A DNA stretch of 64,000 nt, taken from assembly GCA_964106645.2 (NCBI GenBank), contig OZ067047.1, one strand, 5' to 3'. This DNA is from Podarcis pityusensis. Lineage: Eukaryota. Of this stretch, positions 45,673 to 51,600 are shown piece after piece. The position numbers are program-made. The number at the start of each line of letters is the position of its first letter. The first letter of the stretch is position 1.

Positions 45673-48600
45673 AAATGATTCAAACTTAAATTATCTGATA
45701 TGTCTGGATATAAGGATACAAATGTGCTCTGAATAAATGATGGAATTATACTTCTGACATTAGTAGAGGATCTCAAGCTGTGGCAGTATTCAGTTATCTT
45801 CATAGTGCAACATCTGGTGGGTTTCCTGCCATGCAAATCTCATGAAACCTCTGCATTAAATTTAGTTGTAAGTGCACACTAGACTGAGACCTCATTGTTG
45901 TGAAACAGAATGAGAAATCATGCAAATTCATTAAAAGCTGAGAAATCCAGTGAGAAAACGTCTGTGTTTCTATATGCCTCTTCCCTCTAATTCCCTACAT
46001 GTCCAGTTCCTTCTTCCACTCTACCTCAGAGTCCAATAAGAGATGCCCCCAAATTCTTCACAACCTCTACTAAGAACATGGATTAAATCCTTGCATGCAG
46101 AGTTTGCTTCATCTGCATGCCAATGGAAGGTTCCGGGTGTTATTGGTTCCAACATTCTAGAATGCTGAACTAAGAGCACTCAGAACCTTCCACTGACACG
46201 CACATCTAGCAAAACTCTGCATGCGGCTTATAAGTAGTGGTCCTCAACATCAGTGATGGGGCAGGCCCAGTCCATATAGTATACAGGTATGGCTAGCAGA
46301 GGGCTACCAGCATAAACCAGTCACCTCATTGGCCCTTGTGGATTGCTAGAGGCCTCCGAATAGGCACTGCACTAGTCCTATGGAAACAAGTCCATCTCAC
46401 TTCCTTGCTCATCACACAGCAGTACATGACATGGCAGTAAGTCATGGGTGCAGAGAGAGAGAGACAACTGGAGTGCCTCAGGGTCCCAGAAGGCTAGGGG
46501 CCCTTTACAGTCATCTGATGCAGATGAAGGAAGCATTGTGACCTATGCTCAGTTAGTGTATCATACTTAGATGGGCATTTGGCTAATGGAGTACTGTGTC
46601 AAGCAGCTTTGGCTTTCTTCTTAAAATTAAAAAAGACTCAAAATTGTGGCACATAAAAAAGCACCTTGAACCAATTTACATGAAAGTTCTGGAAAATCTA
46701 TTTTGGCAAATGACATTACCAAAGAATGCTCAGTTGCATCCTCATGTTGCTTGCATTAGATGAGCGAGCGTACCTTTATTAAACTGAAACTGGTCAAGAA
46801 TGAGCTGGGCAGCTTTTTTTTTCTGTGCTAAATCCCAGGAAAATTCCAAGCCAGAATGGAATTAATGATGGGTGAAGCCAGAGTCAAATGTGATCAGAAC
46901 TTCCCCTTTTTTTCTCTCTTACATGGGCATGGCCCAACCCCAAGACATGGGGTCTTATCCCTGATCTCACACTGCATCTTTGAGACGGAGTCAATACAAA
47001 AAAGGAGCACTTCCCCCCATTGTCCTCCATCTAGGAGCCAAGAAGAAATGGCAAGCACAAGTTGGCTTTCGCTGCCTATGTTCCTGACAGTTGGTTGGAG
47101 CTCCGAGGCAAAGTGTGGCATAATGGTTAGTGTGTGTTGGACTATGACCTAGGAGGCCAGGGTTTGAATCCTCCTCACCCAGCCATGAAGCTCACTGGGT
47201 GACCATCTCTTAGCTTAACCTACCTCACAGGGTTGCTGTGGGGATGAAATGGGGAGGGGAGAACCATGTACACCAAATTGAGCTTCTTGGAAGAAAATGG
47301 TGCTATATAAACGTAATAAATAATAATAAATAAGAGAAAGGCTGGGAGATGGGCAGCACATGCTCTTAGGCTCCTTCAAGCAGTGCTTCCCTATGATCTC
47401 ACCCCACCCAGCCAGTCATTACAAAGGGTAAGATTGGGGGAGCCAGGGCATGAGTGATATTCAGCCACCAGCTGAATATCCAACCAACAACCCAGTGTTT
47501 TCCCATTGAAGTGATAGGGCATAACCTAAGTTCTACTACAGGGCAAGAAAGCCTTAACCACCTTATTATGCTCTCAGCCAAAAGTGAGCTTGCTAGGCAA
47601 ATTTCTTTGACAATTTCAATAGGCTCATGAGAAATGAAAGCAAGGAAGGAGCCATTCAAGTTGGCCAACTGTGTAAGTATCAGGTGATTCTTTAAATGCT
47701 GTATTAAAGCAACATTTTGTTTGAATTGTGAGAATGTTTGATCGTTTCTGCTCTTCATTTTAGTGAGCATACCGTTTATAAATAATATGGTTATTTGTAA
47801 TTTCCTAAGGTTGTACAATATTCCTTTTTACATTTCAGTAAAGTAAGTTAGATAAAGCAGATTAAATTAACTAACAACCACGAGTGCCAGTTCACGAGAT
47901 AGACAAACCATTTGCCTACATAGCAAATTAAGCATTCGTGGTTATTAATAAATTTATAATAATCAAATACTACGTACTAAACTGTATAGTTATTATGCCA
48001 ATGTTCCATGTTACCCACTGGCAGCTGGGGGGGGCATGAGGACCCCAGGATGATGTTTTGCCCCACACCCCAGGTTACCCCTCTGCAGCCCTGCAATAGA
48101 GACCATGAACCCTCCTAACAAAAACAAGCACAACTGCACAGACATCGACTACCAGGGTCTCTACATTTTTGTAAGCCTCAGTTCAACTGATGATGAATAA
48201 AATGGACTCTCTCTCCCAAATTCTCACTTTAATAAAATGTCTTTTATTGACGATCTTGCCCAGCTATCATGTAGAATGATCAGATGAATTTGGTGCGTCA
48301 TTGCTTGCAGTCATGCTATGGTGGTACGTACATATCGGGTGCATTCGCAAAGTGTGGTTGTGGGTGCCTGTTGCTGGGACGAATTAATATGAGAGGGAAG
48401 AGGTGGCTCTTATAAGTTGGCAAGAAGCCAGCGGATCAGTCCACACTGAGGCCTTTTCCCCATCGCTTCCTCCATCTGCACTCTTTCGAGGTACCTCATT
48501 ACTCTCTGAAGGATATCTCCCACGCTGTAGCCCTTCTTGGTTGCCTTCTGAGCCAGCCGTGGAAGATCAGCCAGCTCTCCTTCTCTGTCATTTAAGAATG

Positions 48601-51600
48601 TCAGGTTGGGCACATTGAAGTGAGAAGCCACCATCCACTGGAGGACAGCCTGGAGCTCTTTGTTCAGTGAATCGCTTTCGCCATTCTGGTTAGTCACGAT
48701 CACCCCATTCGGACCCATTTGCCTCATATTAGCTCTTACTAGGGAAGCTCTCCTCGGCACTCCTAAATGTTGGGATGAACCACTGTATTGCTTATGTGAT
48801 GTGTCGCCACTGGCTAAGTTGGAGCCATTGCCCCCAGTCTCTAAGAGACACAACTTGGTCATAGACTTCACCAGTTGGTCAATATCCAGCATCTCCATAG
48901 GGTCCATGTTGCCATACATCTCCCATGGATTCGCATTTTGTTTTGCAACAGCCTTTATCCTCTGGGGCCTGCTTTCAGGAGGAGGGGCCTGTCGGTGGCC
49001 CCTGTTTGTGTTGCTGGAATTGTCTTCTGCATTGGAAACAGCTTCACGCATCACCTTCTGGATGGTTGACGAGAGGATACTTGTAAGATCTTCCTTTCTA
49101 GGTTCTTGGTGTTGAGGTTGGTGTTGAGGTTCCTGCCGCCCCCCTCGTCTCGAAGGGCTAAGGTTCGGGAACTTGGAGCCCATGCTTCCCGTTCCCCTCT
49201 CAAAATTAGTATCGGGGCGATTGAAGCCAAATGAAGAACTACTTGGCTTAGGAGCTCCACCATGCTTGCTTTTGTCCAATAGCTGCTTCTGTATCTTCGT
49301 TAATGCACTATCGATAATGTGTTTTGCACATTCATCCATTGAAATGAGCTTTTCTAGACATTTGCTTCCAGAGGGATGAGGCTCTGTCTGTCGGCTTCCC
49401 TTTTCCTTTCCATGGCTATACATTTTGCTGTTCTGATTGCTGGAGCTGTTCCGATGACCTTGACAGACTCAAGATGTTGTCTCCTCTCTCAGCTTTCTGT
49501 GCTTTTCTGCAGGCCCCTGGTGAATACTCATGTGTGGACAATGCCGTTTCCATGGTGGCAATGACATCATAAAGCACCAGTGTATTAACCAGCAGCTTGT
49601 GATTTGCCAGCTATGCCTTGGCAAGATATTGCTTTGCAATGTTCAAGTTTAACTTGGTTCTCTATGTGTAGAGAACCTCAGGCCTTGGGTCTCCAAGCCT
49701 TGTCTGTCTGCTGCTTGGGACACTCCCCAAACCACACCTACTTTCCCCATGGCAATCTCCCCATGAACCCTGCTTCGCACTTTACTCAAGTATTTTTGCC
49801 TGGCTGGAATGTGTCTTTAAACTCTGATAATACTTTTTTGCTTTCCTGGATGGAAGATGGGAGGGTGGATGAGTTTGTGTAGAAACTAGTATACTATACA
49901 AAGGTAATATTCACTTAATAATACCTTAGCCCACTTTTGCTTCTGAACCCATTAACCACAGGCATCTGGCCCCTAGGGGTTGTACGGAAGGGAATGAGGT
50001 CTTTGGTCTGAAAAAATGCTCCCCGACCCCTGCTGTATAGCCATGTTCAAGAATGTGAAAATGGAGCATTTCACTGTTGGGGAAATTTGGAGAGGTGGAT
50101 GATCTGCCATAGCAGAACTTACCACTACCAAAAATAAAAAAATAAAAAATTGGCAATGGGCATAAGCCTCCCACTGTGATTTAGGAATCAGTGTCTTATC
50201 CCCAGGAAACAGAATTGTGAAAAATGCAGCTGGTTATATGGAAGTTTGTGTAAGGAAGTCTGTGCCTTTGGAATCATGTGTTAATGAAATTGTCATGTCT
50301 GTTATTTTATTAACATACTTTTATTTCAAGTGAGTTGAATAAAATTTAGGCAATGGTAGTTTTTAACTGTATAAAATATAAATGTATGATTGTACCAATG
50401 GGTTTCACTGAAAATCAGTTGAAATGTTTTGTTAGTACTGTACTCAAATAAATATATAACTTGTACACAGCATAAAGCAGCTCAACAGCTAAAGATGCTC
50501 AGTTAATTAATTGTTTTAGTTATTGTTATGTATTTTATGCATTGTTATGAAACTGCAGTGGCATCACTCTGACTTGATGAAGGGTGGCCTGTAAATTATA
50601 GAACTAAATCAGTCAGTCTGATCTAAATCAAGGAGAAGGGAGGCCCACGCAGATGATATGGGGCAACCAACCCATTTTATCACATTGTGGCTTTTTGCAG
50701 GCCACATTCAGAGGTAAGCACTCCATTCAAGAGGTGGGCCAAACAAACATTTGATGGACTAAAAATTTTAAGGAATTCTGTAGATTGTTCTTTCTCTGTG
50801 TGTAGATAGATTAGATATACAGACAGACAGACAGATAGATAGATGATAGATAGATGTGTGTTTTTTTTAATATGTTGTTTTCTGTTAACCTTACAGATGT
50901 AAAATGTTAAACACTGAGATCTCAAGACAATAATAACGAAGTATAATGGGCCCACCCTATAGAACAAGCAGATAGGCTGGAGCAGGTCTACAAATCTTGC
51001 TCAGTCCCATGCCTCTCTGGATGGCTTCCTATGTTCTAATCAAGCAGGATATAAGGACATATTATCTTCTCCCATCACACACACACACAAATGCCTTTTA
51101 CGCAAATGTAAACACACAGAGGGCTCTTTCTCCATTGTGACAGATCCCGAGCAAGGGAATTCTAATTGCCATGCTGCACTGCCTATTAATAATTTTATTT
51201 TGCAGCAGGGATAGGGGCAAATGTCCCTGACAGTTGATCTTCTACCATCTACAGCCTCTATAAATATATTTTGGGCTGTGGGAAACCTTTAAAAAGCGCT
51301 AACAGCATTAGCACACTTTTCACTCCAAAGAGCTCTTTGAGAATGCTGCCAATTTCACTGGGATCCGAAGCTATAGCATAGTGGTTAACTTTGCTACGCA
51401 GAGCACTGAGAACTGTTATCAAGCAGCACTACTGCACACTGAACAAACTTGTTCTTAGCGAATATGCCTTTAGCAGCACAACATGTGGTTAAGGAAAGAT
51501 TTGCATTTTATTCCTATAGGGGCTGATTAAAAAAAGAGAGACACAACAGCAATTTTCTCAAGACTTGTTTGTGCGGTCCAGAGTATGGAAGGACTTAGCA

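What the first reader, a model, noticed from the sequence alone, without database searches (positions are those of the whole stretch)
48243..49471. N-terminally truncated, apparently intron-lacking AKAP3/4 paralogue with an intact C-terminal ORF
Seen: a 337-codon ORF with clear AKAP3/4 C-terminal motifs ending in WLLANL*. It is closed upstream by TGA (49469-71), starts at an ATG with A at -3, and has a downstream AATAAA but no genomic A-tract. Its one visible indel is frame-preserving, a 12-nt tandem at 49106-49129 in the QHQPQHQ stretch. Recalled knowledge: mammalian AKAP3/4 are ~850 aa, bind PKA through N-terminal-half helices, and have an intron just before the last ~50 codons (..QLEK^LPQV..). 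Here the equivalent ELAD-LPRL is continuous. Inference: this is an old retrocopy or intron-loss duplicate that kept only the C-terminal fibrous-sheath assembly domain. It could act as a PKA-blind structural or dominant-negative AKAP in squamate sperm tails.
Basis: partly seen in the sequence, partly recalled or inferred. Interest (0 to 1): 0.75.

Follow-up and report, generated by a model that had tools for sequence, protein, structure and literature searches.

The report
Short AKAP4-like sperm-tail gene, single exon
The window holds an intact 337-codon gene for only the tail end of an AKAP3/AKAP4-type sperm-tail scaffold protein; it looks like a working short version, but how it arose and whether more coding sequence lies upstream could not be settled.

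Summary
On the minus strand an ORF runs from ATG 49423 to TAA 48410 (337 codons; 352 stop-to-stop). It is closed upstream by TGA 49469-49471. It has A at -3, a first AATAAA at 48243-48248 with no A-tract after it, and a perfect 12-nt tandem at 49106-49129. The ORF is far longer than chance allows (simulated maximum 247 codons).

No other AKAP_110 piece was found in 156 upstream minus-strand ORFs. All three frames carry stops between the leader and the ORF. A published gecko testis "Akap4" cDNA primer matches the leader 58 nt upstream of the ATG, which hints that a related gene is transcribed in squamate testis.

My best reading is a real, short, single-coding-exon AKAP4-like gene (confidence 0.45). 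The retrocopy origin lacks its hallmarks: there is no poly(A) tract and no target-site duplication. "PKA-blind" is unproven, because one helix (aa 33-44) fits a recalled R-subunit-binding pattern. A unique GCCACCATGG uORF start 130 nt upstream keeps a longer or frameshifted gene possible. Orthologues, a parent locus, dN/dS and synteny could not be checked.

The parts
48410..49423 (-). Coding sequence, 337 codons plus TAA stop (protein P0001)
   Evidence: It is the longest non-transposon ORF in the window; the longest ORF reached at most 247 codons in 200 simulations.
48413..48706 (-). Conserved C-terminal block, aa 240-337, matching AKAP_110 profile positions 593-690 of 690
   Evidence: E 1.7e-24, 86.6 bits, one ungapped-length stretch; coordinates.
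48554..48577 (-).
   Evidence: The intron position in mammals is recalled, not checked.
49292..49327 (-). AKHIIDSALTKI (aa 33-44), an amphipathic-helix motif that fits a recalled R-subunit-binding consensus
   Evidence: one match in the protein, but 219 of 2000 shuffles also have at least one, so this is a lead only. No PF10522 hit at E up to 1. The region is helical in a low-confidence model.
49106..49129 (-). Perfect 12-nt tandem duplication, in frame (QHQPQHQ)
   Evidence: (D11).
49469..49471 (-). In-frame TGA that closes the ORF upstream
49480..49499 (-). Leader stretch matching the forward qPCR primer of a gecko testis 'Akap4' cDNA (16 of 20; core 16 of 17)
   Evidence: The primer was read in PMC4795608; one match in the window, 0.01 expected; 16/20 is the best match in the window; the next best is 15/20 at four places.
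49416..49553 (-). 45-codon upstream ORF (P0002). It starts at the window's only GCCACCATGG, is in another frame, and its TAG stop lies 5 nt past the main ATG
   Evidence: frame map.
48243..48248 (-). First AATAAA after the stop codon; probable polyadenylation signal
   Evidence: there is no A-tract downstream.
48249..48409 (-). Probable 3' untranslated region (about 160 nt)
   Evidence: Inferred from the stop codon and the AATAAA.
49562..49569 (-). CRE-like octamer with one mismatch, 139 nt upstream of the ATG; a possible promoter element, unproven
   Evidence: 16 such sites in the window against 14.3 expected, which is chance level overall.

Best explanation
This is a real gene of the AKAP_110 family (AKAP3 / AKAP4 / SPHKAP) whose whole coding sequence lies in one exon. 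It encodes a 337-aa protein that corresponds only to the C-terminal part of the ~850-aa mammalian fibrous-sheath AKAPs.

Shown: the ORF is intact and far longer than chance. Its last 98 residues are strongly conserved to the family profile. Nothing resembling the first ~590 profile positions is detectable in the 14.5 kb upstream. The DNA just upstream is closed in all three frames.

Inferred: translation starts at ATG 49423, or a few dozen codons earlier if the assembly has an indel. The mRNA ends about 20 nt after AATAAA 48243-48248. The gene is transcribed in spermatids, as for the gecko 'Akap4' cDNA whose primer matches the leader.

Inferred mechanism: the protein is built into the sperm-tail fibrous sheath through the conserved C-terminal block. 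In human AKAP3 the last ~170-180 residues are the most conserved part and the reported G-alpha-13-binding region. The protein would act as a structural or scaffold subunit without the N-terminal-half PKA-anchoring helices of AKAP3/4. Whether the helix at aa 33-44 still docks PKA R subunits or R2D2-type proteins is open.

The absent 3' intron, if it is ancestral, needs no whole-gene retroposition. Loss of a 3'-most intron by recombination with cDNA is common in germline-expressed genes (recalled general knowledge).
For: The ORF is 352 codons stop-to-stop, against a simulated maximum of 247. AKAP_110 scores 86.6 bits over aa 240-337 against profile 593-690 of 690. That degree of conservation implies long purifying selection on this block. 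Upstream, 0 of 125 minus-strand ORFs of 35 aa or more (49357-63999) and 0 of 31 ORFs of 20-34 aa (49472-53000) match AKAP_110. Stops lie in all three frames between 49660 and the ATG. There is no ATG between 49529 and 49423. The start has A at -3, and a canonical AATAAA lies 162 nt after the stop. The only visible length change, the 12-nt tandem, preserves the frame. The forward primer of the gecko testis cDNA JZ822547 matches 49480-49499 on the same strand, 58 nt upstream of the ATG. That cDNA is called Akap4 and is up-regulated in active spermatogenesis (PMC4795608, passages). Human AKAP3 domain map (PMC8901789, passages): PKA helices at 124-143 and 278-300, AKAP4-binding region at 488-583, G-alpha-13-binding region at 685-853, and the last ~180 aa highly conserved.
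Against: Pfam does not recognise the protein's own first 239 residues. Its silence on upstream ORFs is therefore only moderate evidence that N-terminal exons are absent. The window ends 14.5 kb upstream. A unique optimal-context ATG (GCCACCATGG) opens a 45-codon ORF that overlaps the main ATG. If it is in the mRNA, it would hinder initiation at 49423, or it points to a frameshift. The gecko link rests on one 20-mer (16/20). The reverse primer has no significant match: 12/20 locally, and about 127 equally good sites exist in the window. No orthologue, expression data, dN/dS or synteny could be obtained. ESM Atlas neighbours all score below 0.9 and do not separate AKAP3, AKAP4 and SPHKAP (SPHKAP 0.84, AKAP3 0.82, AKAP4 0.81).
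Confidence: 0.45

Rival explanations
1. The ORF is only the last coding exon, or the last part, of a longer AKAP3/4-type gene. The N-terminal portion would lie in exons that Pfam cannot recognise or that sit beyond the window end. Alternatively, a one-base assembly error or real frameshift hides a start at the upstream GCCACCATGG.
For: The only GCCACCATGG in the window lies 130 nt upstream on the same strand (0.14 expected per window). Its 45-codon frame is hydrophilic like the main ORF and ends 5 nt after the main ATG, so a single-base shift would fuse them. Several AG dinucleotides lie between the TGA and the ATG. Pfam misses aa 1-239 of the ORF itself, so divergent exons could escape. Fusion with the uORF would still give only about 380 aa.
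Against: The longest minus-strand ORF upstream is 143 aa. None of 125 plus 31 upstream ORFs matches AKAP_110, although the family's mid-region blocks are described as highly conserved (PMC8901789). The sequences before the candidate AG sites are purine-rich, not pyrimidine tracts (by eye; no splice-site scorer was run). The gecko primer match suggests the leader, which carries the stops, is itself exonic.
Confidence: 0.25
2. This is the reader's origin: an old, 5'-truncated processed retrocopy (retrogene) of a full-length AKAP3/4 gene that still exists elsewhere in the genome. It would have been kept as an extra, C-terminal-only paralogue.
For: The 5' truncation with the 3' UTR and AATAAA retained is the usual shape of LINE-made retrocopies (recalled general knowledge). 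No neighbouring gene was found that would place the locus in ancestral synteny.
Against: There is no poly(A) tract or A-rich remnant after the AATAAA. The only flanking direct repeat (13 of 14 nt, 48103-48116 and 49761-49774) is about what chance gives in 2.6 kb (my estimate about 0.5) and is not adjacent to the signal. The parental intron position is unverified. A single 3' intron can be lost without retroposition. The existence of a parent locus was not testable.
Confidence: 0.2
3. This is a decaying gene remnant. The N-terminal part has been lost and the remaining ORF is not, or is no longer, functional.
For: An in-frame TGA lies 15 codons upstream of the ATG, a further in-frame ATG (49531) runs into it, and a uORF overlaps the start. 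Most of the family domain is missing.
Against: The ORF is intact over 1 kb. The C-terminal block is strongly conserved. The only indel preserves the frame. A start context and a polyadenylation signal are present. A related gecko transcript is expressed in active testis.
Confidence: 0.1

Closest known systems
AKAP4 (AKAP82 / FSC1), major fibrous-sheath protein of mammalian sperm
   Same: Both share the Pfam family AKAP_110 and the C-terminal end of the profile up to the last residue. The gecko testis cDNA whose primer matches this leader was named Akap4 by BLAST to mouse (E 2e-32, 69%; PMC4795608). AKAP4 is reported from tetrapods onward (PMC12083921) and in crocodile sperm (PMC6933317).
   Different: This protein is 337 aa, against an ESM Atlas cluster representative of 835 aa. 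It has no match to profile positions 1-592 and no PF10522 RII_binding_1 hit, whereas 48% of the AKAP4 cluster carry PF10522. It has no intron in the coding sequence. Orthology was not tested.
AKAP3 (AKAP110), fibrous-sheath rib protein
   Same: Both belong to the same Pfam family. The part retained here corresponds to the region that in human AKAP3 is the most conserved (last ~180 aa) and the reported G-alpha-13-binding region, 685-853 (PMC8901789).
   Different: It lacks counterparts of the PKA-binding helices (124-143, 278-300). By position it probably also lacks most of the AKAP4-binding region 488-583 (the mapping through profile coordinates is my inference). The Atlas cluster representative is 783 aa.
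SPHKAP (SKIP)
   Same: It is the nearest ESM Atlas clusters by features (0.84 and 0.82 for the whole protein; 0.82 and 0.80 for aa 176-337). These clusters partly carry AKAP_110 (41% and 52% of members).
   Different: All scores are below 0.9, which the tool calls a lead only. The cluster representatives are 1079 and 1696 aa. The testis cDNA link points to Akap4 rather than SPHKAP.
5'-truncated processed retrogenes
   Same: It is an intronless coding sequence that keeps only the 3' part of the parent-type message, with the 3' UTR and AATAAA.
   Different: There is no poly(A) tract and no convincing target-site duplication. A parent locus was not shown.

Membership tests
Pfam AKAP_110 (PF05716) | Score above the curated gathering cut-off | tested here: met
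   86.6 bits against a cut-off of 25, E 1.7e-24.
Pfam AKAP_110 (PF05716) | Coverage of the 690-position domain | tested here: not met
   Only profile positions 593-690 are matched, by aa 240-337. No further piece was found in 125 plus 31 upstream ORFs, in 129 ORFs of 72 aa or more, or in 298 ORFs of 48-71 aa elsewhere.
A-kinase anchoring proteins (functional class) | An amphipathic helix that binds the docking domain of PKA regulatory subunits | tested here: inconclusive
   There is no PF10522 RII_binding_1 hit at E up to 1. One match to a recalled consensus pattern lies at aa 33-44, but 219 of 2000 shuffles also match. Binding itself is not testable here.
AKAP4 or AKAP3 orthologue | Orthology by gene tree and conserved neighbours | not testable with these tools
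   No vertebrate sequence collection was open. No neighbouring gene was detectable in the window. ESM Atlas does not separate the subfamilies.
Fibrous-sheath AKAP3/4 | Spermatid-specific expression and location in the sperm principal piece | not testable with these tools
   The only evidence is indirect. A gecko testis 'Akap4' cDNA is up-regulated in active spermatogenesis (PMC4795608), and its forward primer matches this leader.
Processed retrocopy | Absence of the parent's introns | tested here: inconclusive
   The ORF is continuous and aligns 98 on 98 across the expected site. The parental intron position is recalled only; no exon map was found.
Processed retrocopy | Poly(A) tract after the polyadenylation signal | tested here: not met
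   No A-run follows AATAAA 48243-48248.
Processed retrocopy | Target-site duplications flanking the insert | tested here: not met
   The only candidate is 13 of 14 nt at 48103-48116 and 49761-49774. It is at chance level and not adjacent to the 3' end.
Processed retrocopy | A separate intron-containing parent locus in the same genome | not testable with these tools
   The genome is not available, and no second AKAP_110 ORF exists in this window.

The most novel reading that the evidence does not exclude
In squamates the expressed AKAP4-type fibrous-sheath gene would itself be this intronless, C-terminal-only 337-aa form, as the gecko testis cDNA match hints, and not an extra copy. The squamate fibrous sheath would then be built on an AKAP_110 protein that has shed the canonical PKA-anchoring half. 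That would separate the structural role of the conserved C-terminal block from kinase anchoring in a natural lineage.
Probability: 0.2. Interest if true: 0.6.

Novelty: new variant of a known kind. Interest (0 to 1): 0.4.

Why it matters
AKAP3 and AKAP4 are the main building blocks of the sperm fibrous sheath, and both are needed for male fertility in mice (PMC11276731, passages). Which part of them builds the sheath and which part only anchors PKA is not well separated experimentally. A naturally occurring, conserved, C-terminal-only family member would be a ready-made test of that separation, and squamate sperm do have a full fibrous sheath. It would also caution against annotating such genes as full 'A-kinase anchors'. 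If it turns out to be the last exon of a longer gene or a dead remnant, it is ordinary.

Tried and rejected
I then scanned ORFs one by one through alignment containers (40/41, 64/65).

(2) A PDB sequence search gave no match at E up to 1.

(3) The single-sequence AlphaFold2 model was too poor to use (mean pLDDT 41.6, pTM 0.20), so no fold search was run and the second structure job was not spent.

(4) The two-copy complex job on aa 176-337 returned 'no answer' (score 0.00). It is not evidence either way.

(5) ESM Atlas, with the whole protein and with aa 176-337, kept all neighbours below 0.9 and did not separate AKAP3, AKAP4 and SPHKAP.

(6) The neighbour-gene hunt for synteny failed. Of 129 ORFs of 72 aa or more, only the LTR-element ORF had Pfam hits. 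I had dropped 25 of the 154 such ORFs because they overlap that element. Of 298 of the 313 ORFs of 48-71 aa, only six isolated weak hits appeared (best E 0.00057 and 0.0014), about the number expected by chance. Fifteen plus-strand ORFs at 57199-63784 were not scanned.

(7) Target-site duplication search: nothing beyond chance.

(8) The self-BLAST found no repeat copy between 47.4 and 52.77 kb, so no transposon is seen at the ORF's 5' edge. Only families with two or more copies in the window can show.

(9) Rfam at gathering threshold gave no match in the window.

(10) The bacterial-type promoter/terminator scan is not relevant to a vertebrate and I ignore it.

(11) The CRE-like site is at chance level window-wide.

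(12) The reverse gecko primer gave no match within 3 mismatches. The best local match, 12/20, is at chance level. The 21-nt difference in amplicon length that it would imply is therefore not used.

(13) Literature on exon structure: Hu et al. 2009 is not held, and searches gave no exon map for the last intron.

(14) A search for the C-terminal hexapeptide in papers found one unrelated paper.

(15) Bacterial, phage and plasmid collections were not searched because they are irrelevant.

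
Full report
OBSERVATION.
- On the minus strand the frame is open from 49468 to the TAA at 48412-48410, 352 codons.
- From the first ATG (49423-49421) it encodes 337 residues ending IRWLLANL (P0001).
- The codon before the open frame is TGA (49471-49469).
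- The ATG has A at -3 and T at +4.
- The first AATAAA after the stop is at 48248-48243, and no A-run follows it.
- The 12-nt tandem is exact (49106-49131, 2.2 copies, 100%) and lies in QHQPQHQ, aa 100-106.
- Pfam places the protein in AKAP_110 (PF05716; E 1.7e-24; 86.6 bits against a cut-off of 25). Only residues 240-337 align, to profile positions 593-690 of 690, as one stretch of equal length. ELADLPRL (48554-48577) is therefore uninterrupted.
- The ORF is the longest outside the transposon. In 200 first-order Markov simulations the longest ORF averaged 163 codons and never exceeded 247.

WHAT LIES AROUND IT. I looked for the missing N-terminal two-thirds.
- No minus-strand ORF upstream exceeds 143 aa.
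- I scanned every minus-strand stop-to-stop ORF of 35 aa or more between 49357 and 63999, each on its own, against Pfam. Of 126 members (125 ORFs plus P0001 as positive control), 1 matched AKAP_110, and that was P0001.
- Of 31 shorter ORFs (20-34 aa) in 49472-53000, 0 matched.
- Elsewhere in the window there was no AKAP_110 hit among 129 ORFs of 72 aa or more (25 of the 154 such ORFs were dropped because they overlap the LTR element). Nor was there one among 298 of the 313 ORFs of 48-71 aa (15 were not scanned).
- Caveat: Pfam does not recognise the protein's own first 239 residues. A strongly diverged N-terminal exon could therefore be missed, and the window ends 14.5 kb upstream.
- No neighbouring gene was detected at all, so synteny with the AKAP3 or AKAP4 neighbourhoods could not be tested.

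THE 5' REGION. Between 49660 and the ATG every frame has stops.
- The main frame has stops at 49651, 49645 and 49471.
- The second frame has stops at 49587, 49569, 49530 and 49491.
- The third frame has stops at 49613 and 49418.
- In this assembly the ORF therefore cannot be lengthened through the adjoining DNA. Only a splice into the 45 nt between the TGA and the ATG could do it. The sequences ahead of the AG dinucleotides there are purine-rich (by eye; no splice scorer was available).

Two further things stand out in this region.
- The forward qPCR primer published for a Hemidactylus testis cDNA called Akap4 matches 49499-49480 on the same strand at 16 of 20. That cDNA is EST JZ822547: 665 bp, BLAST to mouse Akap4 at E 2e-32 and 69% identity, and higher in active than in regressed testis (PMC4795608, passages).
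- This is the best match to that primer in the window; the next best are four sites at 15/20. Its 17-nt core matches with one mismatch where 0.01 matches are expected.
- The match suggests the leader, including the stretch that carries the stops, is exonic in a related testis transcript. It rests on one primer. The reverse primer has only a chance-level match.
- The window's only GCCACCATGG lies at 49559-49550 (0.14 expected). It opens a 45-codon hydrophilic ORF in another frame that ends 5 nt past the main ATG.
- That ATG may lie upstream of the transcription start, it may be a regulatory uORF, or a one-base indel (real or from assembly) may separate it from the main ORF. In the last case the protein would still be only about 380 aa.
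- A CRE-like octamer sits just upstream (49562-49569), but such sites are at chance frequency in the window (16 against 14.3 expected).

ORIGIN. Retrocopy hallmarks are missing.
- There is no poly(A) remnant.
- The only flanking direct repeat, 13 of 14 nt, is what chance gives in 2.6 kb.
- No repeat copy abuts the ORF.
I found no exon map in the held literature (Hu et al. 2009 is not held).
- PMC10875313 (passages) says only that human AKAP3 exon 5 encodes the RII-binding through AKAP4-binding regions.
- If the intron is ancestral, loss of a single 3'-most intron in a germline-expressed gene is an ordinary event (recalled). A 5'-truncated retrogene remains possible.

FUNCTION. PMC8901789 (passages) gives a map of human AKAP3.
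- PKA-binding helices: 124-143 and 278-300.
- AKAP4-binding region: 488-583.
- G-alpha-13-binding region: 685-853.
- The last ~180 residues are highly conserved.

By profile coordinates the protein here keeps the last of these regions and lacks the first two. Whether it keeps any of the AKAP4-binding region is uncertain.

'PKA-blind' is also not shown. Residues 33-44 (AKHIIDSALTKI) fit a recalled consensus for R-subunit-binding helices, but 219 of 2000 shuffles of the protein also contain such a motif, and PF10522 gives no hit.

The structure model was unusable (pLDDT 41.6). The PDB search gave nothing. ESM Atlas gave only leads: SPHKAP 0.84, AKAP3 0.82, AKAP4 0.81.

COMPARISON AND NOVELTY.
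- The family is certain and the subfamily is not.
- AKAP4 is said to appear in tetrapods and AKAP3 in amniotes (PMC12083921, passages).
- Lizards and crocodiles have a complete fibrous sheath (PMC11276731, passages and section 16).
- AKAP4 has been reported from crocodile sperm (PMC6933317, passage).
- My searches found no paper describing a C-terminal-only AKAP3/4 in squamates. Public genome annotations could not be consulted, so the gene may already be predicted there.

VERDICT.
- Most likely this is a working short AKAP4-like gene (0.45).
- Next most likely is part of a longer or frameshifted gene (0.25).
- Then an old truncated retrogene beside a full-length parent (0.2).
- Least likely is a decaying remnant (0.1).

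SCOPE NOTES.
- I do not take the window for human. It carries a young LTR retrotransposon with identical LTRs and an AKAP-family gene of non-mammalian architecture.
- The claimed squamate origin is not established by any search.
- The gene model is a single exon.
- The window has no N.
Paper supplements were not seen.

Noticed in passing
window 24373-29262 (+): A complete LTR retrotransposon. Its two 300-nt LTRs are 100% identical (24373-24672 and 28963-29262). They flank one uninterrupted 1405-aa gag-pol ORF (24735-28949) with protease, reverse transcriptase, RNase H and integrase domains in Ty3/gypsy order. It looks like a very recent insertion and explains the GC- and CpG-rich block at 24-29 kb.
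   Followed up: partly
window 3220-3610, 17698-17942, 20128-20286, 33075-33438, 37541-37774, 52772-53142, 58784-59138: A family of about 370-nt interspersed repeats (SINE-like), 7 copies at 75-86% identity on both strands. It gives recurring spurious ORFs (…GHVASMTK…). Rfam found no tRNA-like or other RNA family in the window.
   Followed up: partly
window 49416-49553 (-): The only exact GCCACCATGG in the window opens a 45-codon ORF that overlaps the start of the AKAP-like ORF in another frame. It may be a uORF, may lie outside the mRNA, or may be a sign of a one-base frameshift.
   Followed up: partly
window 1-64000: Apart from the AKAP-like ORF and the LTR element, no ORF among 427 scanned outside the upstream minus strand (129 of 72 aa or more, 298 of 48-71 aa) gave a credible Pfam hit. 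The 64 kb looks gene-poor, with CpG observed/expected at 0.17-0.30 outside the element.
   Followed up: yes
window 18874-18930, 45636-45670, 56801-56877: CA/TG dinucleotide microsatellites that cross-match one another in the self-comparison.
   Followed up: no
window 45201-45432 with 61316-61520; 47151-47323 with 4636-4826: Two further pairs of diverged dispersed repeats (about 72% identity) of unknown type. The second pair lies about 0.9 kb beyond the gene's 3' end.
   Followed up: no
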